DNA of 41,040 nt from the NCBI RefSeq assembly GCF_010692395.1, contig NZ_JAAHHS010000023.1, positions 721 through 41,760 of the forward strand, read 5' to 3'. The notes under the pieces were generated by a model that had not been told where the DNA came from, did no database searches, and saw only the letters and a program-made list of their open reading frames with translations. Both the position numbers and the translations under genes were made by a program. The stretch is from Moorena sp. SIO3H5. GTDB taxonomy: Bacteria > Cyanobacteriota > Cyanobacteriia > Cyanobacteriales > Coleofasciculaceae. The number at the start of each line of letters is the position of its first letter. Within the stretch, counting starts at the first letter, position 1. Of this stretch, positions 17,793-40,603 are shown in pieces.

Positions 17793-17809
17793 GGATTTGG
17801 CTAAGCATT

Positions 17810-17960
17810 CAGCGGTCAGCGGTCAGCGGTCAGCCGTTAGTCTTTAGCTGTTCCCGTAGCGTGGGCGTAGCCCATGAGCTAAAAGCTGATAGCTAAAAGC
17901 TGTTCGCGTAGCGTGCGCGTAGCGCATAAGCTGATAGCTGATAGCTGATAGCTGGTAGCT
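17810..17960. repeat. Mixed repeat block: (CAGCGGT)x3, two tandem GTTCGCGTAGCGTG-type units, (GCTGATA)n
   Basis: Read directly downstream of the dnaK stop. Confidence 0.85.
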
Positions 17961-18031
17961 GAATACGTACATGGCTAATAGCTAAGGCAGATAATCCTAA
18001 AGCTTAGTCTATCTTTTTCTAAAGTCTAATT

Positions 18032-18067
18032 AAGGTTGATGAGAATTTGATTACTCATCAACCTTTT
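18032..18067 (+). terminator. Rho-independent-type terminator downstream of dnaK
   Basis: AAGGTTGATGAG - 10-nt loop - CTCATCAACCTT (perfect 12-bp stem) running into TTTT. Confidence 0.55.
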
Positions 18068-18080
18068 GCTTATTGGATTT

Positions 18081-18496
18081 TAGGGAGTAGGGAATCGGGA
18101 GTAGGGAATCGGGAATAGGGAATCGGGAATCGGGAATAGGGAATAGGGAATAGGGAATAGGAAAAAAATTATCACAATTACGACACGGATTGCTATACTC
18201 TAAATTAGTAGCTAAAGTCTAGGCAAAAGGCAAAGGGCAAGAGGCAATAGTCGTCAGTTATTAGAGTGGATGAATAATAGAGGATATCAATACTTTTAGC
18301 AAAAAAAGTAAATTTTTTAATTAGTTTATCGGTGACATTTTTTAAACATCAAAACATCAAACTAAAACAAAATTTTACCTCTTGCCTCTTGCCTCTCCTA
18401 AATTCCCTGTTCCCTGTTCCCTCTAAACCAAAATACTATATTCCCGATTACCTACTCCCGATTCCCAATTCCCGATTCCCGATTCCCGATTCCCTA
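18081..18496. repeat. Nested inverted heptamer arrays forming a ~415-bp imperfect palindrome
   Basis: Outer arms: GGGAATC/GGGAATA units 18081-18161 versus GATTCCC units 18439-18496. Inner arms: AGGCAAAAGGCAAAGGGCAAGAGGCAATAG 18221-18250 versus CCTCTTGCCTCTTGCCTCTCC 18378-18398. The centre is AT-rich. Confidence 0.85.
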
Positions 18497-21383: not shown

Positions 21384-23702
21384 TTAGGTATTATTAAGGA
21401 TATCGTGCAAAATTTGGAGACTATTACGAAACTTTACAGTGTGAGGATGATCTGACCCTAACTTCTTTTCTGCAATCTCCAAAGCCTGGACATAGAGCGG
21501 TTCTGCCTGATGGTAAAGTCCCTGAGTATAGTAGAGTCGAGCCAGGTTGTGGAGACTGCTGGCCACATCGGGATGGTTGTGACCCAGCAGCTGCTTTGTC
21601 ATCTCCAAAGCTTGTTGATAGAGGGGTTCTGCCTGATAGTAGCGTCCCATTGACCAGTAGAGATTTGCCAGGTTGTTGAGACTGATGGCCACATCGGGAT
21701 GGTCTTGACCCAGCCGCTGCTTCAACAGCTCCAAAGCCTGTTGATAAAGGGGTTCGGCCTGGTGATAGCGCCCCATTGACCAGTAGAGTGCACCCAGGTT
21801 GTTGAGACTGGTGGCCACATGGGGATGGTGTTGACCCAGCCGCTGCTTTCTGATCTCCAAAGCCTGTTGATAAAGGGATTCGGTCTGGTCATAGCGCCCC
21901 ATTGACTTGTAGAGTGCACCCAGGTTGTTGAGACTGGTGGCCACACGGGGATGGTATTGACCCAGCCGCTGCTTTCTGATCTCCAAAGCCTGTTGAAAGA
22001 GGGGTTCGGCCTCATCATAGCGCCCCATTGACTGGTAGAGTAAACCCAGATTGTTGAGACTGGTAGCCACATCGGGATGGTTCTGACCCACCAGCTGCTT
22101 TCTGATCTCCAAAGCCTGTTGTAAGAGGGGTTCGGCCTCATCATAGTGCCCCATTGAATTGTAGAGTAAACCCAGATTGTTAAGACTGGTGGCCACATCG
22201 GGATGGTTCTGACCCAGCAGCTCCTTTCTGATCTCCAATGCCTTTTGAGAGAGGGGTTTGGCCTGGTCATAGCGCCCCATTAACCAGTAGAGTAAACCCA
22301 GGTTATTGAAACTTCGGGCTACATCGGTATGTTCCTCACCCAGGCGGCTTCTAGTTATCTCTAAACATTTCTCATACCAAGGTTCAGCCTGGTCATAGAT
22401 ACCTTGATCGTCATAGAATTTTCCTAAGACAGTTAAGAGGGATGGTAAATCTTCATCCCTGAGCCAGTTAGTTAGGACTGTGGCAGCTTCGGCTAAATGA
22501 GGGATGCTGAGATTAACTACTGCAATCTGATCTTGAGTTGGTGTCTCAGGAATTTCCTGGGCTACAGCCACCATTGCCTGACAAAAGCTTTGCTTGTAGC
22601 TATCGGCCTCTGGTAATTGATCGAGTTTGGTCTGGAAAAATTCTCGAATTAGTTGATGGACTTGATAGGTTTGTTTTTCGGTCAGTTTCAAGAGATTACG
22701 ATTGACCAGAAAGCGATCGCGTAATTCTTCTAATTCTTCTTGTTCTTCTTCCCATTCCTCCTCATCGTCCGTTTCGATAACACAAGACTCTACCAGTGAC
22801 CACTCAAAAGGAGCTTGAGCAAACAGACTCAGACGACATCCCAACTGCTGGGCTTCTGGAAAATCTTTCAAATCTTCCCAGGATAAGTCAAAGGCTGCTG
22901 CGACTCCCAACTGGGCTGTCACTTGCCCTTGTTCTTCTTGAGAAAGTAATGCCTTTGCTGCTAATTTCTTTTTCTCTAAACGTTTCTGAACTTTAGCAAT
23001 GGTTAAACTCGGATGTAGATCTAAATATCGTCCTACTAACTCCAAGCCCAAAGGTAAATAACCCAACCATTCACATAGGGCTTCTGCTTCGTTTAGTTCG
23101 TTATCAATGCGCTCTTTTCCAACAAGCGATCGCAATAATTCCAATGCTGCACCAGGTGCTGCTTTTGGCGAAAGTACATCCAAGTCAATTCGTTGGTACG
23201 AAGCTCCTGGACGCTGACGACTGGTAACCAGTACTTTGAAGCGGGATTGGGCTGGAGGCAAATAGGGTTCAATTTTATCTTTATAGTCCTTCCCGAAAGA
23301 AGGAACATCATCGAGCACAATCAATACTGTTCCTTCTGGCCAATTTCTCCAGCAGTGTTCTACCTGTTGTTCGTTTAACTTTAGTTTATCGGGAATGGTT
23401 AATCCTAATTTAGTACGGGCAAAACTGACAATCTGAGTCCCGAGATCTACACCGCGCACTGGAAACCAGCACAACCCACCAGGATACTTATCCTGATATC
23501 TAAGTGCATATTGTAGAGCTAACTCAGTTTTGCCCACACCACCCATTCCAGCAATGGCACAAATCACTAATCGATCCGTCTCTTGAAATTCCCGACGGAG
23601 CTGCTCAAGTTGATCTTCCCTACCAACAAAGTAGGGAGTGCCACGATTAATAATGTTACTGGGGGGATTTAACTTTGTCCGTTCCCGGTCGGACGACTCC
23701 AG
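21384..23702 (-). CDS. STAND NTPase: NB-ARC-type ATPase + ~8 TPR (42-aa, kinesin-light-chain-like) units. True N-terminus unresolved: no canonical start after an in-frame TAG
   Basis: P-loop GMGGVGKTELA, Walker B TVLIVLDDV, pre-P-loop FVGREDQLEQL. TPR units of pattern HPDVATSLNNLGLLY.SMGRYDEAEPL.QQALEIRKQ.LG, visible as 126-nt DNA repeats ~21440-22440. The frame is open from 23702 down, but the first ATG/GTG/TTG is GTG 23567, 7 codons before the P-loop. Confidence 0.85.
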   Translation of the reverse strand: MESSDRERTKLNPPSNIINRGTPYFVGREDQLEQLRREFQETDRLVICAIAGMGGVGKTELALQYALRYQDKYPGGLCWFPVRGVDLGTQIVSFARTKLGLTIPDKLKLNEQQVEHCWRNWPEGTVLIVLDDVPSFGKDYKDKIEPYLPPAQSRFKVLVTSRQRPGASYQRIDLDVLSPKAAPGAALELLRSLVGKERIDNELNEAEALCEWLGYLPLGLELVGRYLDLHPSLTIAKVQKRLEKKKLAAKALLSQEEQGQVTAQLGVAAAFDLSWEDLKDFPEAQQLGCRLSLFAQAPFEWSLVESCVIETDDEEEWEEEQEELEELRDRFLVNRNLLKLTEKQTYQVHQLIREFFQTKLDQLPEADSYKQSFCQAMVAVAQEIPETPTQDQIAVVNLSIPHLAEAATVLTNWLRDEDLPSLLTVLGKFYDDQGIYDQAEPWYEKCLEITRSRLGEEHTDVARSFNNLGLLYWLMGRYDQAKPLSQKALEIRKELLGQNHPDVATSLNNLGLLYNSMGHYDEAEPLLQQALEIRKQLVGQNHPDVATSLNNLGLLYQSMGRYDEAEPLFQQALEIRKQRLGQYHPRVATSLNNLGALYKSMGRYDQTESLYQQALEIRKQRLGQHHPHVATSLNNLGALYWSMGRYHQAEPLYQQALELLKQRLGQDHPDVAISLNNLANLYWSMGRYYQAEPLYQQALEMTKQLLGHNHPDVASSLHNLARLYYTQGLYHQAEPLYVQALEIAEKKLGSDHPHTVKFRNSLQILHDILNNT

Positions 23703-24496: not shown

Positions 24497-24530
24497 TTCC
24501 CTGTTCCCTGTTCCCTGTTCCCTGTTCCCT
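24497..24530. repeat. Heptamer array (TTCCCTG)x~5
   Basis: Read directly. Confidence 0.9.
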
Positions 24531-25665: not shown

Positions 25666-25711
25666 GGTATAGCGGTTTTTAAGCTAGTAAAGTACAATTT
25701 TTTTGGTTTTA

Positions 25712-25739
25712 GGGAGCAGGGAGCAGGGAGCAGGGAGCA
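25712..25739. repeat. (GGGAGCA)x4, left arm of the inverted repeat around the four-helix-bundle gene
   Basis: Exact reverse complement of 26219-26246. Confidence 0.95.
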
Positions 25740-25757
25740 GGGAAGGAGAAACAGAAG

Positions 25758-26120
25758 TCATTGTTCTAGCTTTTTAATAAGAGCAATAATCATTCGACTT
25801 TCTTCTTTAAGTAAAGAAACAATTACTTCTATATCTGTTTGCTTAGATAAGCCTACTCTAGAAGATAAAATAAGATGTGTTTCTAATTCGTTAATTGAGC
25901 CTTGGGCAATATTAAGAAATCTGATGTACTCAGCGGTTGACCTTCTCCCATATCCTTCTGCTATGTTAGCCGGAATAGATACCGCAGCTCTCCTAATTTG
26001 TTGAACCATACCATATAATTCGTCTTTAGGGAAAAATTTAGTTAATAAATAACACTTTTCGGCTATATCCATGCCTTTTTGCCAAATTATTAAGTCTTTA
26101 AAATTATTAATATATGACAT
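25758..26120 (-). CDS. Four-helix-bundle protein (23S rRNA intervening-sequence protein family)
   Basis: 120 aa; FKDLIIWQKGMDIA, RRAAVSIPANIAEGYGR, FLNIAQGSINELETHL match the family signature as I know it. The gene is AT-rich (17/60 G+C in line 25801). Confidence 0.85.
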   Translation of the reverse strand: MSYINNFKDLIIWQKGMDIAEKCYLLTKFFPKDELYGMVQQIRRAAVSIPANIAEGYGRRSTAEYIRFLNIAQGSINELETHLILSSRVGLSKQTDIEVIVSLLKEESRMIIALIKKLEQ

Positions 26121-26218
26121 TTATAAACTTATTGATTTTTACAGTATAGTGTTTACGGCGGTTTGCATAACTATCAGGTGCACAGGATTGTTTTCCGTCT
26201 TATGACTTCCCTCTTCAC

Positions 26219-26246
26219 TGCTCCCTGCTCCCTGCTCCCTGCTCCC
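26219..26246. repeat. (TGCTCCC)x4, right arm of the inverted repeat
   Basis: Exact reverse complement of 25712-25739. Confidence 0.95.
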
Positions 26247-26281
26247 TAAAAATCTAGCTCACCTAACTGAAACCCCTATAT

Positions 26282-28144
26282 TCAGCTTTCCCCAACACAT
26301 CGATAAAGCTTATAACTATACTGACCAGCCCACTTAGAGCGCTTTTCTCGAAAACATTGCTGAGACTCTAGGTCAACTTTGGTACGGAAATTAACTAACC
26401 ATAAATCTAGTGGTCGTGGCAATTCATTTAATTGTTGTTGTAATTGTTGGACAGCATCCTCGTAACTGGAACTATTCCGGTCACGACCTACTAAGAAAAA
26501 TTGGGGAAAATCCCTGGAATTATCATTAGAACCATTAGCAACAGTCAGACCTTTCAATCCCCAAGCTAATCCCATCATGCGCCCGGTCTGTCCATGGTGT
26601 TTGTAGGTCGTTGCGATCGCAAGCGGTGCTTCACTTGCTTCCTTAAGAATAGACACTAGTAGATCCGGGCGCTCGTTTTGAAGATAACCAAGATTCGAGA
26701 CTGTCACTAATCCACCCAACAGCCCAATCAACCATACCGCTACCACTATCCTTTTGCCAAAGTAAGACTTATAGCTGTTTTCATCCCGATCAAGTACATA
26801 GGATTTTCTTCTACTTTCCTGTGTTCCCCTCCTGGGAGGGGTTAGGGGTGGGTTCCTGCTCCCTGCTCCCTGCTCCCTGTTCCCTGTTCCCTGTTCCCTG
26901 TTCCCTGCTTGTGCAACAAGTCTAATCTGATTCCAACAACCACCTAAGCTTGCTGCCACCAACAGGATCACTCCTGGAAAGTAGACGAAGTGAAAACGGG
27001 GGGCTGTGCTTAAATCTATACCGAAACCCCAGGTCAAGACTAAACATAACCCAATTGCTGCTAAGACATACTCCCTTAGGATTGTGATAACGGAACGGTT
27101 ATGGTGATCGAGTTGCTGTAATTTCAGTCCATAGCGGAGATGGGATACTATCCAAACCACTAGGATTAAGGTAACTATACCGGAAACAATAATAATTCCT
27201 AGGGATAGGTCATAGAAAGAAGAAGGTAGCAGTAACACCATACTGAACAGCCATAGTAAAAATCGTCCTATGGGTTCAATCCATCGTGCGATCGCATTTT
27301 GGCTATAAATCCATTGGGTAGGGGGACTATCATGAATCGTTTGTAAGGCCGGTATCCACACTAAACATCCCGCTAAGGAACCCATAGCTACTCCATAAAT
27401 TCCCCACCAGTAAGGTTTGATCAAAGCTAGTCGGTCTTGCTGAGTTTCTCGCCAAGCTTGTCCCAATAATGCGATCGCTTCCGCACCTAAAGTCAGGATA
27501 AAGAAATAATGGGTAGCAATGCCCAGACTATTCACTCCCACCCACCCTAACCCTAGCCAACTGGGCAACCGTTCACCACAGTCGATTAACTCTACCGCTT
27601 TCACCAAGCAACCGAGAGATGCTATCACTAGCACAATAGCCAGAGTATAATGACGAGCCTGTTGAGCTAGGAAAATCCCGAAAGGGGAAACAGCCATCAT
27701 TGCTGCTGCTATGTGACCTACCAATAGTGAGCGAAAGGCCAGCCGACCTAGGCAAAAGATAGCAGGAATCGAGATTACTCCCAATAAAGCAGAAAGCGAT
27801 CGCACTGCCCAAATCGAAACTATACCATCCTCTAATGGGAATAGTTTTAGCCACAGATGGGTCAGAGCAAAATAAACTGGGGGATGGGTACTTTCCGTTA
27901 ATAAATAATGAATAACATTACTAATGCCAGCATCAGGAGACGGTTGTAGTGGGCTTAATAGGGTGTCTACTCCCATAAACTGATTCAGAGGTAACGAGTA
28001 AAAACTGTTACCCAAGCTAAATACTGTTGTCGCACATTCATCAGTCCAAGGAGGTAAAACCCCTAAACCAGCAAAGCGCAGCAAAGTCCCAATCGTAATC
28101 CACAGCAGCAATAATAAAACAGTTTGGGATTTTTTTAAGTACAT
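26282..28144 (-). CDS. GT39/ArnT-PMT-like membrane glycosyltransferase (GT-C fold)
   Basis: 620 aa; ~11 TM helices; N-terminal LRFAGLGVLPPWTDECAT motif typical of family 39; C-terminal soluble domain. Contains an in-frame repeat insertion (next feature). Confidence 0.8.
   Translation of the reverse strand: MYLKKSQTVLLLLLWITIGTLLRFAGLGVLPPWTDECATTVFSLGNSFYSLPLNQFMGVDTLLSPLQPSPDAGISNVIHYLLTESTHPPVYFALTHLWLKLFPLEDGIVSIWAVRSLSALLGVISIPAIFCLGRLAFRSLLVGHIAAAMMAVSPFGIFLAQQARHYTLAIVLVIASLGCLVKAVELIDCGERLPSWLGLGWVGVNSLGIATHYFFILTLGAEAIALLGQAWRETQQDRLALIKPYWWGIYGVAMGSLAGCLVWIPALQTIHDSPPTQWIYSQNAIARWIEPIGRFLLWLFSMVLLLPSSFYDLSLGIIIVSGIVTLILVVWIVSHLRYGLKLQQLDHHNRSVITILREYVLAAIGLCLVLTWGFGIDLSTAPRFHFVYFPGVILLVAASLGGCWNQIRLVAQAGNREQGTGNREQGAGSRNPPLTPPRRGTQESRRKSYVLDRDENSYKSYFGKRIVVAVWLIGLLGGLVTVSNLGYLQNERPDLLVSILKEASEAPLAIATTYKHHGQTGRMMGLAWGLKGLTVANGSNDNSRDFPQFFLVGRDRNSSSYEDAVQQLQQQLNELPRPLDLWLVNFRTKVDLESQQCFREKRSKWAGQYSYKLYRCVGES
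26825..26903. repeat. Palindrome CCCCTCC-TG-GGAGGGG plus seven heptamers (3x TGCTCCC, 4x TGTTCCC) lying inside the GT39 ORF
   Basis: Translated in frame as AGNREQGTGNREQGAGSRNPPLTPPRRGT; verified codon by codon. Confidence 0.95.
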
Positions 28145-28147
28145 ATA

Positions 28148-28215
28148 GGGAAGGGAACAGGGAATCGGGAGTAGGGAATCGGGAATCGGGAATCGGGAAT
28201 CGAGAATCGGGAATG
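28148..28215. repeat. Heptamer array (GGGAACA / GGGAATC units)
   Basis: Starts 4 nt upstream of the GT39 start codon. Confidence 0.9.
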
Positions 28216-28438
28216 ATTTAGGTTATTTTTTTGAAGGTTTTAGCAATTTATCTTACTTATTTTTTCAACGTTTATTGCTTGATTAAGCATGTAAATTACA
28301 ATGCCTTTAAATTTTAATCAGTTCTAAATCAACAAGTTACATAGCATTTTTAATATTTATAATTTACCTATAAAATTATTAAGCTAATCAGCATTGAAAG
28401 TTTAGATCTATCCACTGCTTAAAAAGCCTTCAATTGCT

Positions 28439-28547
28439 CTCCCCATCTCCCCATCTCCCCATCTCCCCATCTCCCCATCTCCCCACACTTCCCTCTCTCC
28501 CTGTTCCCTGTTCCCTGTTCCCTGTTCCCTGTTCCCTGTTCCCTGTT
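28439..28547. repeat. Octamer (CTCCCCAT)x5-6 then heptamer (CCCTGTT)x7
   Basis: Counted directly. Ends 3 nt from the stop of the 212-aa ORF. Confidence 0.95.
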
Positions 28548-28550
28548 CCC

Positions 28551-29189
28551 TCAACGACGAAATAAGCGTAAAATTATCCACATTACCAGAGTAGCGATCG
28601 CACCAGTGAGAATACTCCAGGCAAAAGCTGGTGTCATCATAAAGATAGTATTATTTTCAGGGGGTTGTTGTTTAACTAGGACAGTCGCAGTAATGCTACT
28701 GGTTGCTACTCCCACGCCAGCCAGAGCAATGCTTTGGTGTAAGCTACGATTACTCTGGGTTTGGTAAGTTTGGGTCATGCCATCTACTGTCCGAATCATA
28801 TTTTCTAGTAAGGTTAAACCAGACTTTAATCTGCCATGCTCCATCTCCACTTGTTGCAGATATTGGCTAGCTGCTAAATCCCTAAATTCTTCGAGAATGT
28901 GCCAATCACCCCGTTGATCAACCTGTTTTAGTTTAGTCAATCGTTGTTGGTAATGTTCGATATTGGTTTTAATGGTTTGGGCTTGGGAATCGAGAATACC
29001 TAAATTAGTAGCATAACGAGACAATAGAGTGAGGTTATTGCTTAGTATTTCTCGTAACTTTACTGTATTTTGAGATAACATACTGATCTCAGCAATACTA
29101 GTGTTAACTGAAACTAGATCAGCTTTCAATTCTGCTAGTGGTGTGTTAATTTCACCATAAGCCCAAAGAATTTTGTTACGATAATACAA
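28551..29189 (-). CDS. Hypothetical coiled-coil protein with two C-terminal TM helices, overlapping the kinase gene by 14 nt
   Basis: 212 aa. The only canonical start is TTG 29189. Long helical/coiled region, then SIALAGVGVATSSITATVLV and AFAWSILTGAIATLVMWIILRLF. Family not recognised. Confidence 0.5.
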   Translation of the reverse strand: MYYRNKILWAYGEINTPLAELKADLVSVNTSIAEISMLSQNTVKLREILSNNLTLLSRYATNLGILDSQAQTIKTNIEHYQQRLTKLKQVDQRGDWHILEEFRDLAASQYLQQVEMEHGRLKSGLTLLENMIRTVDGMTQTYQTQSNRSLHQSIALAGVGVATSSITATVLVKQQPPENNTIFMMTPAFAWSILTGAIATLVMWIILRLFRR

Positions 29190-32547: not shown

Positions 32548-34572
32548 ATGGAATCTCTTCTGAATGTTCGATTTTCCATTAACCCTTTCCCAAGGGTTAG
32601 GTTTCAGCGTTCCTTGGGATTGGTTTTGCTAGGTGTACTTACCCTACTGCTCACCCTATTACCATGCTCTACCTTAGCACAGGAATCTTTGGCAAATGGC
32701 ACTAAGAAAGCTCCTGTGGTAGTGGATGGTATTGAATTATTTCAAGTGGGCAACGCTGGCAACTTTAGCGCTACTGAGCGAGCCAATCTGATCAATCAGC
32801 GCTTAGCAAGGGAGGTGAAATCCCCACAAAAACCTAAGTATGTGGACATTGAATATGTCGGGCAAAACGAGGGGATTCTTCGTACCAAGTTTACCGAGCG
32901 CATTCTGGTCACCATTACCAAGGCCGATCAAATTCCTGATACTGATCCTCTTGAGCAAGCCCAGAAATGGGAGAAGCTGATTGAAAGGGCAATCCGGCAG
33001 GGCAAACGACAGCGGATGCCAGATTATAGTCGTCAGGCAGTAAGGTTTACAGCCATAGTGCAGGTGTTGTTAATGCTGTTGTACTTGCTGTTACGCTTCT
33101 TCAGGCAATTTGCCTTGCGGAAACTGACCTCTTGGCTAGGGAATCCGGCTTCGCCTTTTTTCCCTTGGCATGACCCAGCCAAATTATTTCTGGGGGCAGC
33201 CCTGTTAGGTTTACAGCTTATCCTGTGGACTACAGCGATCTTAACCATTAGTGACCTATTTCCCCAAGTTCGCAGTTGGCGTTATGACCTGTTAAACTTC
33301 CTCAAGTCTCCTGTCATTGGTGCAGGAGAAAGCAAGTATTCTGCTATCCAAGTGCTGCTGTTGGTGGTATTAACCGTTGTGCTATGGTTTGTGGTTAGTG
33401 CCCTCACCAGGCTATTGAGGCGTTACGTCTTGGGCAAAAGTGGCGCTGATTCAGGGGTGCAAGAGGTTATTGCTATCCTGACCCAGTATGTCCTGACATT
33501 TTTGGGCATGATTATCATACTGCAAAGTTCTGGGTTGGATTTGAGTTCCCTAACCATTTTTGCCAGTGTCTTAGGGGTAGGAATTGGCTTCGGTGTGCAA
33601 AATATTGCTAACAACTTTATCAGTGGCTTAATTATCACCCTAGAGCGACCGATTCAACTGGGGGATTTTATTAAAGTCAACGATTTGGTGGGAACTGTGC
33701 AGCGCATTGGTTCCCGCAGTACAGAAATTTGCACCTTGGATAAAGTGACAATAATTGTGCCCAATGCCCGGTTTTTAGAAACTGAGGTGATTAACTGGAG
33801 TCACGGTAACCCGATTTCCCGGCTCAAGATTCCTGTAGGAGTGGCTTACGGATCTGATGTGGAGCAGGTCAAGAAGGCACTGTTGGCAGCTGCCAAGAGT
33901 CACCCGGAAGTGTTACTGAGGCCCTATCCCCAAGTTTGGTTTCAGGAATTTGGTGAGAGTTCCCTCAACTTTGAGCTGTTGGTCTGGACTGGAGACCCCA
34001 AGCGGCAGCCTAAAATCAAAAGTGACTTGAACTACCGGATTGAGAAAAGTCTGCGTCGCCATGATATCCATATACCATTTCCTCAACGGGACCTCCATGT
34101 GCGATCGCCTCAGTTAGAGAAATTGCTCACGGCTTGGCTGGGGGAGCGTCAGCCAAAACCGCCAGAAAACCAACTCTATATTCCTAATGGATATCAGTCT
34201 GAGCGGCCCACCCAAGATGCTTTAGTTTCAGGTTTCCTAGAGCCGATGGATGAAGTAGATCTAGATTCTTACCCTACGGCTCCTTTGCAAGAGGATATGG
34301 TAACACTAGACATTGAAACCTTGGTCGAGGAAATGCGTCAACCAGGAGGATTGGATATTAAAGACCGTCGCTATCGTCTCAATAGCTATGGATGCTGTTT
34401 TGTTGGCTCAGAAGCCGTAGATTGGTTGGTAAAACGGTGTAATTCTACTCGGGAAGACGCAGTAACTGTTGGACAGATACTAATTAATAGAGGTATTATT
34501 CATCATGTCGCAGATGATCATCCTTTCCGGGATGATTATTTGTTTTACCGTTTTTATTTAGATGAGAATTAA
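32548..34572 (+). CDS. MscS-family mechanosensitive channel with C-terminal DEP domain
   Basis: 674 aa. MscS core NNFISGLIITLERPIQLGDFIKVNDLVGTVQRIGSRSTEICTLDKVTIIVPNARF. Last ~85 aa (nt ~34309-34569) GGLDIKDRRYRLNSYGCCFVGSEAVDWLVKRCNSTREDAVTVGQILINRGIIHHVADDHPFRDDYLFYRF align by eye to the DEP consensus. Confidence 0.85.
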   Translation: MESLLNVRFSINPFPRVRFQRSLGLVLLGVLTLLLTLLPCSTLAQESLANGTKKAPVVVDGIELFQVGNAGNFSATERANLINQRLAREVKSPQKPKYVDIEYVGQNEGILRTKFTERILVTITKADQIPDTDPLEQAQKWEKLIERAIRQGKRQRMPDYSRQAVRFTAIVQVLLMLLYLLLRFFRQFALRKLTSWLGNPASPFFPWHDPAKLFLGAALLGLQLILWTTAILTISDLFPQVRSWRYDLLNFLKSPVIGAGESKYSAIQVLLLVVLTVVLWFVVSALTRLLRRYVLGKSGADSGVQEVIAILTQYVLTFLGMIIILQSSGLDLSSLTIFASVLGVGIGFGVQNIANNFISGLIITLERPIQLGDFIKVNDLVGTVQRIGSRSTEICTLDKVTIIVPNARFLETEVINWSHGNPISRLKIPVGVAYGSDVEQVKKALLAAAKSHPEVLLRPYPQVWFQEFGESSLNFELLVWTGDPKRQPKIKSDLNYRIEKSLRRHDIHIPFPQRDLHVRSPQLEKLLTAWLGERQPKPPENQLYIPNGYQSERPTQDALVSGFLEPMDEVDLDSYPTAPLQEDMVTLDIETLVEEMRQPGGLDIKDRRYRLNSYGCCFVGSEAVDWLVKRCNSTREDAVTVGQILINRGIIHHVADDHPFRDDYLFYRFYLDEN

Positions 34573-35627: not shown

Positions 35628-35781
35628 GGGCATCCTGCCCGCGCGGAAATAAGGAGGAAACTGGCAAGATGCCAGTTCCACGCAAGATGCCCGCGCGAAA
35701 ATAAGCATGAAACTGGCAAGATGCCAGTTCCACGCAAGATGCCAGTTCCACGCAAGATGCCAGTTCCAGGGCAAGATGCCC
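35628..35781. repeat. Array of small hairpins / 18-nt tandem units (CAGTTCCACGCAAGATGC)
   Basis: Repeated TGGCA-AGA-TGCCA and GGGCA-NNN-TGCCC stem-loops. The larger ~55-nt unit is duplicated. Confidence 0.85.
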
Positions 35782-39904: not shown

Positions 39905-40036
39905 AAATAGGTTAGTTTTCAGTATAAGTTATAACATACTTTTGTAACATTTACTGATATAGGGCTGTCATATCCTGCATGTTTGGCTCTACTACCTATA
40001 CGACATTGAGTTTGAACAAAAATCTAGGAATTTTAC

Positions 40037-40255
40037 ATGAGGTTTTACATGAGGTTTTACATGAGGTTTATGAGGTTTTACATGAGTTTTATGAGGTTTT
40101 ACATGAGGTTTATGAGGTTTTACATGAGGTTTATGAGGTTTTAGATGAGGTTTTACATGAGGTTTGACATGAGTTTTATGAGGTTTTACATGAGTTTTAT
40201 GAGGTTTTAGATGAGGTTTGACATGAGGTTTTACATGAGGTTTTACATGAGGTTT
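40037..40255. repeat. Minisatellite: 20 tandem units (13 x 12-mer ATGAGGTTTTAC-type, 7 x 9-mer ATGAGGTTT-type)
   Basis: Units parsed one by one; total 219 nt. All unit lengths are multiples of 3. Confidence 0.95.
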
Positions 40256-40603
40256 ATAAGTTGACAAACACTTTGAATTAGATTTAATATATTGAAGCAA
40301 GTTAAATTTCCTTGGTTTAATACAATTAGGAGTTGTGAAACAGATAAAAAAAATCATGCCCTGGCATCTATAGTAAGTACTAAATAATCAGCTATCAGCT
40401 GTTACCTTGTTATCATTTTGCTCAAACCGGGGTGCCGATTAATGGCAAGCTCTATGAGCTATACCAAGAATCAGAAAAGGTGGAAGAATACCGCCAATCC
40501 CAAGGTAAGCTAGATGTATGTGAAGGTTGCACAGTTTGGTGTTATTTGATTCCCAGCTTCTTTATGGGTGTGGACAAATATTGGTGGTTGAATCAAGTTA
40601 CCT

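What the first reader, a model, noticed from the sequence alone, without database searches (positions are those of the whole stretch)
26825..26903. Heptamer array plus palindrome translated in frame inside a GT39 glycosyltransferase: possible contingency (phase-variable) site
Seen: seven heptamers (3x TGCTCCC, 4x TGTTCCC; 49 nt, 26855-26903) and the palindrome CCCCTCC-TG-GGAGGGG (26825-26840) lie within ORF 26282-28144. They are read as AGNREQGTGNREQGAGSRNPPLTPPRRGT, between the TM-rich N-terminal part and the C-terminal domain. These are the same heptamers that fill neighbouring intergenic arrays. Inference: an intergenic-type STRR element has invaded a linker of the coding sequence while the frame survived. 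Because the unit is 7 nt, gain or loss of one unit by slippage would frameshift the gene. The array could therefore act as an on/off switch for a surface-glycosylation enzyme.
Basis: partly seen in the sequence, partly recalled or inferred. Interest (0 to 1): 0.5.

Follow-up and report, generated by a model that had tools for sequence, protein, structure and literature searches.

The report
In-frame heptamer repeats in glycosyltransferase loop
A run of 7-base repeats and a small hairpin element really do sit inside a Moorena membrane glycosyltransferase gene, but strain comparison shows a length-variable loop that always stays in frame, with no sign of an on/off switch.

Summary
The minus-strand ORF 26282..28144 (620 aa, identical to a Moorena sp. 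SIO3H5 protein) carries 4x GGGAACA + 3x GGGAGCA plus a 7+7 hairpin. They are read as GNREQGTGNREQGAGSRNPPLTPPRRGT.

None of 63 orthologous loci outside Moorena has tandem heptamers in the gene, so this is a genus-specific insertion. It lies in a low-confidence loop between the last two membrane helices of a GT-C-fold enzyme.

In 15 Moorena DNA loci the loop-coding segment is 195-561 nt long. It mixes heptamer arrays with small CCCCTAACCCC hairpin elements, while the flanks are 91-97% identical. Every allele is in frame (15/15 DNA loci; 20 distinct linker peptides from at least 20 assemblies).

Between identical flanks, the unit count changes only in threes: 3/6/12, 11/14 and 7/10. The intergenic array just before the ATG takes 7 to 18 units, in all classes mod 3.

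A change of one or two units would truncate the protein at 431-446 aa, removing a C-terminal region with 20 invariant residues. Such alleles were never seen, although most alleles were found through intact proteins.

Verdict: a tolerated, frame-constrained repeat polymorphism in a disordered loop. A contingency switch is not supported. This is a new member of a known kind, of modest interest.

The parts
26282..28144 (-). Gene for a 620-aa GT-C-fold membrane glycosyltransferase (named 'glycosyltransferase family 39 protein' by NCBI; Moorena sp. SIO3H5)
   Evidence: ORF. 100% identical to P0001. AlphaFold model has pLDDT 88 and pTM 0.89. The Foldseek hits at E<=0.001 are STT3/AglB, ArnT, Pmt4, ALG9/12, DPY19 and AftA. 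40 of 61 homologues hit PF02366.
26855..26910 (-). In-frame heptamer array. On the coding strand: one degenerate unit, then 4x GGGAACA and 3x GGGAGCA, encoding GNREQGT GNREQGA GSR.. (array starts at codon 414). It is a G3N4 quadruplex motif on the sense strand.
   Evidence: G4 motif and ViennaRNA gquad prediction: -41.2 versus -30.9 kcal/mol.
26814..26854 (-). Small hairpin element on the coding strand: GGAACCCACCCCTAACCCCTCC-CA-GGAGGGGAACACAGGAAAG, encoding NPPLTPPRRGTQE. It contains the palindrome 26826-26841 and is a diverged copy of the CCCCCCTAACCCCCC-loop-GGGGGG elements in other Moorena alleles.
   Evidence: The same element sits at the same place in the SIO4G3 protein.
26756..26932 (-). 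Hypervariable linker-coding segment (residues about 405-463), between the penultimate and last membrane helices. The model gives low confidence and coil for residues 421-452.
26285..26755 (-). Last membrane helix (hydrophobic stretch about 464-482) plus the conserved C-terminal domain (about 483-620), which would be lost after a frameshift in the array. Twenty residues here are invariant across 61 homologues.
28145..28214 (.). Intergenic heptamer array ending 7 nt before the ATG (context and control). Unit number is 7-18 in 14 Moorena loci, in all classes mod 3.
26218..26247 (.). Intergenic array of the same unit (GGGAGCA on the gene strand), about 35 nt after the stop codon (context).

Best explanation
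The array and palindrome belong to a repeat-colonised, hypervariable loop of a conserved cyanobacterial GT-C membrane glycosyltransferase. In the genus Moorena, G-rich intergenic-type heptamers (GGGANNA) and small CCCCTAACCCC hairpin elements have entered the coding sequence of the loop between the last two membrane helices. These units have no stop codon in any frame on the sense strand, and the loop is predicted to be disordered. Insertions are therefore tolerated as extra hydrophilic peptide (GNREQGx, PLTP...). The arrays keep expanding, contracting and recombining, by slippage or recombination (inferred). Only changes that preserve the frame persist, which for a 7-nt unit means steps of three units (21 nt, 7 aa). 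Any other change truncates the protein before its last membrane helix and conserved C-terminal domain. What we see is a frame-constrained length polymorphism, like a variable-number tandem repeat inside a gene, and no switch behaviour. Shown: the insertion, the variability, the strict in-frame rule, the consequences of a frameshift, and the fold. Inferred: slippage as the mutational mechanism, loss of function on truncation, cytoplasmic location of the loop, and selective neutrality of loop length.
For: The insertion is Moorena-specific: 0 of 63 non-Moorena loci have tandem heptamers in the gene, and their linkers are short. The linker is 195-561 nt in 15 Moorena loci and every one is divisible by 3. 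There are 20 distinct in-frame linker peptides among 30 protein records (17 listed, plus P0007, P0010 and P0011, whose in-frame linker DNA is). Unit counts between identical flanks: 3,3,3,6,6,6,6,6,12 (flanks AAAGAGxA...GGGAAATGG); 11,11,14 (flank GTTGCAxAAG); 7 in the window versus 10 in SIO4G3, both ending at the same hairpin element. Control: the intergenic array before the ATG has 7,9,10,11,12,13,14,16,18 units, in all classes mod 3. Flanks are 95-97% identical with no gaps over 900 nt upstream and mostly 91-95% downstream, whereas the linker is 28-80% identical with up to 359 gap columns. Changes of 1 or 2 units give 431-446 aa products, and 20 invariant residues lie downstream. Model residues 421-452 are coil and the 10-residue blocks from 421 to 450 have pLDDT 51-61. 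Protein fragments in the clusters end at contig ends or in adapter sequence, never at the array. Intragenic G-rich heptamer arrays are already documented in cyanobacteria, where phase variation was judged unlikely (PMC4692102).
Against: Twelve of the 15 DNA loci, and all protein records, were found through intact predicted proteins, which biases the sample toward in-frame alleles. Only 3 loci (L001-L003) came from a frame-agnostic tblastn scan. NCBI pseudogenes would be invisible in the protein database. No read-level data were available, so low-frequency out-of-frame subpopulations cannot be excluded. Neutrality of loop length is assumed, not shown. The persistence of repeats at this one site in the whole genus could reflect some benefit.
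Confidence: 0.75

Rival explanations
1. Contingency locus: slippage of the 7-nt units switches the glycosyltransferase on and off at high frequency, giving phase-variable envelope glycosylation.
For: The unit length is not a multiple of 3, and changes of 1 or 2 units truncate the protein. Copy number does differ between strains. The gene product is an envelope-related GT-C enzyme. The sampling bias toward intact proteins means OFF alleles could have been missed.
Against: None of 15 DNA alleles or 20 distinct peptides is out of frame. Unit changes occur only in multiples of three, while the adjacent intergenic array varies freely. No Prodigal-type fragment ends at the array. Identical arrays occur in independent samples and strains: L072 = L073, SIO3I8 = SIO3I7, SIO4A5 = SIO4A1. 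The perfect runs are only 4 and 3 units, and the array is two-thirds of the way into the gene. SSR switches are enriched near the N-terminus (Lin & Kussell, as cited in PMC4692102).
Confidence: 0.08
2. Functional element: the repeats are kept because they do something. Either the G-quadruplex and hairpin in the mRNA or DNA modulate translation or transcription between the last two membrane helices, or loop length tunes the enzyme or its partners.
For: Seven G3 tracts with 4-nt loops lie on the sense strand, and ViennaRNA with G-quadruplexes predicts a G4 (-41.2 versus -30.9 kcal/mol) plus the hairpin. Related heptamers form G4 in vitro (PMC4692102). The stem of the window's hairpin differs from the CCCCCC/GGGGGG version by a paired change (CCCCTCC/GGAGGGG) that keeps pairing. 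All CCCCTAACCCC copies in the Moorena loci lie on the coding strand.
Against: Array number, unit composition and element content differ wildly between strains (3-16 units, 0-5 elements), which argues against a conserved structural requirement. Orthologues in all other genera lack the repeats entirely. The coding-strand bias can be explained by stop-codon avoidance, since the reverse orientation of the element has TAG in one frame. There is no experimental evidence.
Confidence: 0.12
3. Artefact: the array is a short-read assembly or annotation artefact, and the true gene is split or has a different sequence there.
For: The window comes from a metagenome-assembled Moorena genome. Repeats do break assemblies in this genus: the SIO3C2 partials end at contig ends and there is an N-run in L003.
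Against: The 49-nt array is probably shorter than a sequencing read (read length not checked here). Comparable in-frame arrays occur in the 9.6-9.7 Mb single-record genomes of M. producens PAL and JHB. The ORF is continuous and conserved on both sides.
Confidence: 0.03

Closest known systems
G-rich heptanucleotide tandem repeats of cyanobacteria and Xanthomonas (GGGNATC / GGGGAYT; Rehm et al. 2015, PMC4692102), and the classical STRR repeats of heterocystous cyanobacteria
   Same: 7-nt units with a G3-4 tract. Many dispersed arrays, mostly intergenic and close to gene ends. Variable unit number and G-quadruplex potential. A minority lie inside ORFs (32% in Anabaena PCC 7120 according to that paper). 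Phase variation was judged unlikely there too.
   Different: The units here are GGGAACA, GGGAGCA, GGGAATA and GGGAGTA, in a non-heterocystous marine genus (Moorena). They are not the canonical STRR1-3 sequences (recalled from memory, not tested). This array is on the coding strand, inside a conserved enzyme, and interleaved with hairpin elements.
SSR-mediated phase-variable (contingency) genes of host-adapted bacteria, for example tetranucleotide repeats in Haemophilus and Neisseria LPS glycosyltransferases, and the heptanucleotide ATCTTTC repeats controlling hmw1A (PMC8262952)
   Same: A tandem repeat whose unit is not a multiple of 3, in or near a glycosylation or surface gene. A one-unit change would alter expression.
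   Different: No out-of-frame alleles. Short imperfect runs (4+3 units, against 13-24 in the hmw1A promoter constructs). Located late in the ORF. A free-living cyanobacterium. The hmw heptamers act in a promoter, not in frame.
In-frame tandem repeats that create disordered protein regions, for example Borg element amino-acid tandem repeats (PMC9879509), and VNTR-type length polymorphism in bacterial proteins
   Same: Rapidly evolving DNA repeats inside ORFs, under strong selection to keep the frame. They yield hydrophilic, disordered peptide repeats, often in membrane proteins. There is a conserved hotspot within one protein family.
   Different: Here the DNA unit (7 nt) is not divisible by 3. 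The peptide period is three units (7 aa, with all three frames read in turn), and only every third length state is viable.
Small dispersed palindromic elements of cyanobacteria (SDR elements of Nostoc, Elhai et al. 2008; MITE- or REP-like hairpins)
   Same: An element of about 40 nt with a C-run/G-run hairpin, repeated and nested, occurring inside other repeats and tolerated in coding sequence.
   Different: Mobility and genome-wide copy number were not established here. There is only one copy in the 41-kb window, and every copy seen in the Moorena loci lies in this one linker. The Elhai paper could not be read, so the comparison rests on memory.

Membership tests
SSR contingency (phase-variable) locus | Tandem repeat inside the ORF whose unit length is not a multiple of 3, so that a one-unit change shifts the frame | tested here: met
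   7-nt units. Simulated changes of 1 or 2 units give 431-446 aa truncations.
SSR contingency (phase-variable) locus | Both in-frame (ON) and out-of-frame (OFF) repeat numbers found among strains or isolates | tested here: not met
   15 of 15 DNA alleles and 20 of 20 distinct peptides are in frame. Unit counts differ only by multiples of 3 between identical flanks. Caveat: the sampling is biased toward intact proteins.
SSR contingency (phase-variable) locus | Long, perfect repeat tract giving a high slippage rate; within-population length heterogeneity | not testable with these tools
   The longest perfect runs are 4 and 3 units. Identical arrays in independent samples (L072 and L073) hint at stability, but no read data were available.
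SSR contingency (phase-variable) locus | Repeat located near the 5' end of the ORF or in the promoter | tested here: not met
   The array starts at codon 414 of 620.
Cyanobacterial G-rich heptanucleotide tandem repeats (STRR-like; Rehm 2015 class) | Tandem 7-nt units with a G3+ tract, at least 4 units (G4-capable), dispersed in many mostly intergenic arrays | tested here: met
   TRF finds about 25 period-7 arrays in 41 kb, all but this one outside credible genes. G4 motif scan and gquad fold.
Cyanobacterial G-rich heptanucleotide tandem repeats (STRR-like; Rehm 2015 class) | Unit sequence identical to a described family (GGGNATC, GGGGAYT, or STRR1-3) | tested here: inconclusive
   The upstream array is GGGAATC-type, matching the GGGNATC/GGGANTN class in PMC4692102. 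The in-gene units GGGAACA and GGGAGCA do not fit GGGANTN. The STRR1-3 sequences are recalled from memory only.
GT-C glycosyltransferase / CAZy GT39 (PMT-like) | Sequence match to the PMT family model (PF02366 or PF13231) | tested here: inconclusive
   The window protein has no Pfam or NCBIfam hit at E<=0.1. 40 of 61 aligned homologues hit PF02366, best E-value 2.3e-8. A family profile against PDB sequences finds only Pmt4 at E=0.4.
GT-C glycosyltransferase / CAZy GT39 (PMT-like) | GT-C fold: multi-helix membrane domain with conserved acidic residues in the first external loop, plus a C-terminal soluble domain | tested here: met
   Model pLDDT 88 and pTM 0.89. The 24 Foldseek PDB hits at E<=0.001 that I inspected are all GT-C enzymes: STT3/AglB, ArnT, Pmt4, ALG9/12, DPY19 and AftA; top-hit TM-scores about 0.40-0.46. 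D35 and E36 are at least 90% conserved in the PPWTDE motif.
GT-C glycosyltransferase / CAZy GT39 (PMT-like) | Specifically GT39 rather than GT66, GT83 or another GT-C family; protein O-mannosyl transfer activity | not testable with these tools
   Foldseek ranks STT3 (GT66) and ArnT (GT83) above Pmt4 (GT39). No MIR domain was detected. The substrate is unknown.
Small mobile palindromic elements (SDR / MITE / REP-like) | Hairpin-forming unit present in many dispersed copies in the genome | tested here: inconclusive
   The hairpin is confirmed and homologous copies exist. However, there is only one copy in the window, and all 26 copies in the Moorena loci lie within this linker, none in the flanks. 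A genome-wide count was not possible.

The most novel reading that the evidence does not exclude
The array is a working regulatory device in a free-living filamentous cyanobacterium. One version is a true slippage switch that generates GT-null subpopulations, which are missed here because pseudogenes are invisible in protein databases. The other is a sense-strand G-quadruplex plus hairpin that paces translation between the last two membrane helices. In either version the 'only every third state is viable' rule would make a 7-nt repeat a one-in-three ON lottery.
Probability: 0.07. Interest if true: 0.6.

Novelty: new member of a known kind. Interest (0 to 1): 0.3.

Why it matters
The locus is a clean natural example of how intergenic-type simple repeats and mini-hairpin elements can colonise a permissive loop of a conserved membrane enzyme. 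It also shows how selection filters a 7-nt repeat so that only three-unit (7-aa) steps survive, with an unconstrained intergenic array next door as a built-in control.

There are three practical points:
- It warns against reading every non-triplet repeat in a surface-related gene as a phase-variation switch.
- It offers a strain-typing marker for Moorena.
- It flags annotation artefacts around such arrays, namely N-terminal extensions and tiny 'hypothetical proteins' translated from them.

It does not open a new biological question unless read-level data reveal out-of-frame subpopulations.

Tried and rejected
- Pfam and NCBIfam on the window protein gave no family hit. I had to use homologues and a structure model.
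- A family profile against PDB sequences gave only Pmt4 at E=0.4.
- The look-up of encoding contigs had no record for P0003 and P0008, so those alleles were used as proteins only.
- The GTDB genome scan gave only 3 Moorena loci.
- The JGI metagenome scan gave 24 loci, none from Moorena, so there was no extra frame-agnostic sample.
- I looked for split or truncated alleles in 90%-identity clusters. The fragments found end at contig ends or in Nextera adapter sequence (P0127), not at the array.
- A peptide search with GNREQG/GSREQG repeats listed only 41-84 aa 'hypothetical proteins' among its best 120 hits, evidently ORFs overcalled on arrays. It therefore did not show how often real proteins carry such repeats.
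- The promoter/terminator scan of 26100-28600 was no better than shuffled sequence.
- Elhai et al. 2008 on small dispersed repeats could not be read.
- Topology by hand-counting helices was ambiguous. The cytoplasmic placement of the loop rests on the GT-C rule that the C-terminal domain is periplasmic, and on the loop's excess of Arg and Lys.
- Assembly artefact was rejected as the main explanation because the PAL and JHB genome records show the same kind of in-frame arrays.
Full report

Yes. The + strand at 26855-26903 reads 3x CCTGCTC + 4x CCTGTTC, which is equivalent to 3x TGCTCCC + 4x TGTTCCC at 26857-26905, followed by a degenerate eighth unit. TRF reports 26855-26909, period 7, 7.9 copies, 95% matches.

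Both features lie inside the minus-strand ORF 26282..28144 (620 aa). On the coding strand the array is 4x GGGAACA + 3x GGGAGCA. With the hairpin it is read as QAGNREQGTGNREQGAGSRNPPLTPPRRGT.

The same units fill neighbouring intergenic arrays at 24497-24530, 25711-25743, 26218-26247 and 28489-28551. Overlaying the roughly 25 period-7 arrays in the window on ORFs of 90 aa or more, this is the only array inside a credible gene.

**2. What is the gene?**

The protein is 100% identical to a 'glycosyltransferase family 39 protein' of Moorena sp. SIO3H5.

- By itself it hits no Pfam or NCBIfam model.
- 40 of 61 aligned homologues hit PF02366 (PMT), best E-value 2.3e-8.
- A family profile finds only Pmt4 weakly among PDB sequences, at E=0.4.
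- An AlphaFold model built on 61 homologues is confident (pLDDT 88, pTM 0.89).
- The 24 Foldseek PDB matches at E<=0.001 that I inspected are all GT-C enzymes: STT3/AglB, ArnT, Pmt4, ALG9/12, DPY19 and AftA.

It is therefore a GT-C-fold, lipid-carrier-type glycosyltransferase. The specific GT39 label is not secure.

In the model, the repeat-encoded residues sit at the end of helix 406-420 and in a coil at 421-452, where the 10-residue blocks have pLDDT 51-61. This is followed by one more long membrane helix (453-482) and then the C-terminal alpha/beta domain. The array is thus in the loop between the last two membrane helices, not directly before the soluble domain.

GT-C C-terminal domains are periplasmic or lumenal in the solved members (established knowledge), and the loop is rich in Arg and Lys. 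I therefore infer that the loop is cytoplasmic. This was not tested.

**3. Is it an insertion?**

Yes, and it is specific to the genus.

- In an alignment with Coleofasciculus, Symploca, Nostoc, Komarekiella and Synechococcus PCC 7336 orthologues, the linker is short and non-repetitive.
- None of 63 non-Moorena orthologous loci has three or more tandem heptamers inside the gene.
- Moorena orthologues range from 611 to 790 aa. Nearly all of this length variation lies in the linker. The rest comes from start-codon choice and a second, smaller insertion site.

**4. What does the linker look like across Moorena?**

I extracted the DNA between the conserved anchors GGCWN and FGKRIVV from 15 loci: the window, three from a genome scan, and eleven via exact-protein look-ups.

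- Lengths run from 195 to 561 nt.
- The content is a mosaic of GGGANNA heptamer arrays (3-16 units in total) and 0-5 copies of small hairpin elements. These are built on CCCCCCTAACCCCCC-loop-GGGGGG and are translated as SPLTPLNKGG or APLTPQ.
- The window's palindrome aligns with these elements. Its stem, CCCCTCC/GGAGGGG, differs from CCCCCC/GGGGGG by a paired change.
- The same element occupies the same position in the SIO4G3 protein.
- All 26 CCCCTAACCCC cores in the Moorena loci lie in this linker on the coding strand, and none lies in the flanks. The 41-kb window has only this one copy.
- Outside the linker the genes are 95-97% identical with no gaps over 900 nt upstream, and mostly 91-95% identical downstream. 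The linker itself is 28-80% identical, with up to 359 gap columns.

**5. The key test: reading frame**

All 15 linker DNAs have a length divisible by 3. Thirty protein records from at least 20 assemblies give 20 distinct linker peptides, all read through in frame: 17 are listed, and the other three (P0007, P0010, P0011) have in-frame linker DNA.

Unit counts between identical flanks, by flank class:

| Flank class | Unit counts |
|---|---|
| AAAGAGxA [array] GGGAAATGG | 3, 3, 3, 6, 6, 6, 6, 6, 12 |
| GTTGCAxAAGxx [array] GGGAAATGG | 11, 11, 14 (the 14 counts diverged units in strain 3L) |
| Array ending at the window-type hairpin element | 7 (window), 10 (SIO4G3) |

Every difference within a class is a multiple of three units, that is 21 nt or 7 aa.

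As a control, the intergenic array that ends 7-11 nt before the ATG of the same gene has 7, 9, 10, 11, 12, 13, 14, 16 or 18 units in the same strains. These fall in all three classes mod 3.

So the arrays mutate freely, but inside the gene only frame-preserving states persist.

**6. Consequence of a frameshift**

Simulated gain or loss of one or two units gives products of 431-446 aa. These lack the last membrane helix and the C-terminal domain. That region holds 20 residues invariant across 61 homologues, among them Y487, L488, R492, D494, H516, H517, G518, T520, G521, R522, P578, W582 and L583. The data indicate that such events are removed by selection rather than used.

**7. Search for OFF alleles and for instability**

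- The 90%-identity clusters of the Moorena proteins contain a few fragments. Each ends at a contig end or in adapter sequence (P0127 ends in ...CLLYTSPSPRDS). Those that cover the linker read through it in frame.
- No N-terminal fragment of about 430-446 aa at Moorena-level identity appears in the ranked hit list. The bit score falls directly from 1087 (P0015) to 713 (a protein with 56% identity to the query).
- Identical linkers occur in independent samples and strains: the two ENA assemblies L072 and L073, SIO3I8 and SIO3I7, SIO4A5 and SIO4A1, and SIO3B2 and SIO1G6.
- Caveats: most alleles were reached through intact predicted proteins, NCBI pseudogenes carry no protein record, a metagenome scan added no Moorena loci, and no reads were available.

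**8. Other properties**

- The array is a textbook G3N4 quadruplex motif on the sense strand. ViennaRNA with G-quadruplexes predicts a G4 plus the downstream hairpin in the mRNA (-41.2 versus -30.9 kcal/mol).
- Related heptamers (GGGNATC, GGGGAYT) are known to be abundant, mostly intergenic and G4-forming in Xanthomonas and Nostoc. About a third are intragenic in Anabaena PCC 7120, and those authors judged phase variation unlikely (PMC4692102).
- Translated heptamer repeats in Moorea producens 'hypothetical proteins' have been noted before (PMC4679880).
- My peptide search listed only 41-84 aa hypothetical proteins among its best 120 hits, from Moorena, Dolichospermum, Anabaena and Nostoc. These are evidently ORFs overcalled on arrays.

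**9. Interpretation**

Best explanation (confidence about 0.75): a tolerated, frame-constrained repeat polymorphism in a disordered, probably cytoplasmic loop of a conserved GT-C enzyme. Intergenic-type heptamers and mini-hairpin elements seeded it, and slippage or recombination continually reshuffles it.

Rivals:

- A contingency switch (about 0.08).
- A functional G4, hairpin or loop-length role (about 0.12).
- An assembly artefact (about 0.03).

The closest known parallels are the G-rich heptamer repeats of cyanobacteria, and in-frame tandem repeats that create disordered regions, as in Borg elements (PMC9879509). The heptanucleotide hmw1A switch of Haemophilus acts in a promoter and uses 13-24 units (PMC8262952).

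**10. Verdict**

The insertion, the repeat identity and the frameshift logic are supported. The on/off-switch inference is not supported by between-strain data and remains untested at the population level. This is a new member of a known kind, of modest interest (0.3).

Noticed in passing
window 28145-28214 (and the same position in L001-L003, L067-L077): A heptamer array (GGGAATC-type on the + strand, C-rich on the gene strand) runs to within 7-11 nt of the glycosyltransferase ATG. It varies from 7 to 18 units among Moorena strains, in all classes mod 3. It would change 5'-UTR or promoter spacing, so it is a better candidate for expression tuning than the in-frame array.
   Followed up: partly
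P0012, P0013 (alignment A1, columns 1-50): The N-terminal extensions of some annotated Moorena orthologues (e.g. ...SLLPIPDSRFPIPDS...) are translations of the upstream heptamer array. They are start-codon annotation artefacts.
   Followed up: partly
L075 and proteins P0012, P0014, P0131; corresponds to window about 26640 (after ...EASEAPL): There is a second in-frame insertion hotspot in the C-terminal domain. It adds LDAVAHG...GNPQDRAASL (up to 32 aa) in some Moorena alleles and is absent from the window.
   Followed up: no
P0127 (ENA, 187 aa): This protein fragment ends in CLLYTSPSPRDS, which I recognise from memory as the translation of Nextera adapter sequence. The public assembly appears to carry adapter contamination.
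   Followed up: no
window 21475-22331, inside ORF 21384..23567 (-): A 126-nt tandem repeat (6.8 copies, 86% matches) corresponds to the 42-aa TPR_10/TPR_12 repeats of an NB-ARC/TPR protein.
   Followed up: partly
window 32548..34572 (+): An MscS-type mechanosensitive channel homologue carries a C-terminal DEP domain (Pfam E=1e-22), an unusual domain combination.
   Followed up: no
window 25758..26120 (-): A 23S rRNA-intervening-sequence protein gene (PF05635) lies downstream of the glycosyltransferase gene. Among the Moorena loci fetched, gene calls with this Pfam hit appear only in L070 and L074, so the downstream flank appears to differ between strains.
   Followed up: no
window 40031-40255, inside ORF 39992..40357 (-): A nested 12/21/33/66-nt tandem repeat (TTTTACATGAGG-type, about 20 copies) lies within a 121-aa ORF that has no Pfam hit.
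   Followed up: no
window 17846-17954 and 35636-35743: Each region has two copies of a 52-nt repeat, embedded among heptamer arrays (17809-18494) or next to an 18-nt repeat (35716-35780). Their nature is unknown.
   Followed up: no
proteins P0139-P0258: The best 120 hits (of 370 at E<=0.01) are 41-84 aa 'hypothetical proteins' from Moorena, Dolichospermum, Anabaena, Nostoc and some non-cyanobacterial bins that match GNREQG/GSREQG repeats, evidently ORFs called on heptamer arrays.
   Followed up: no
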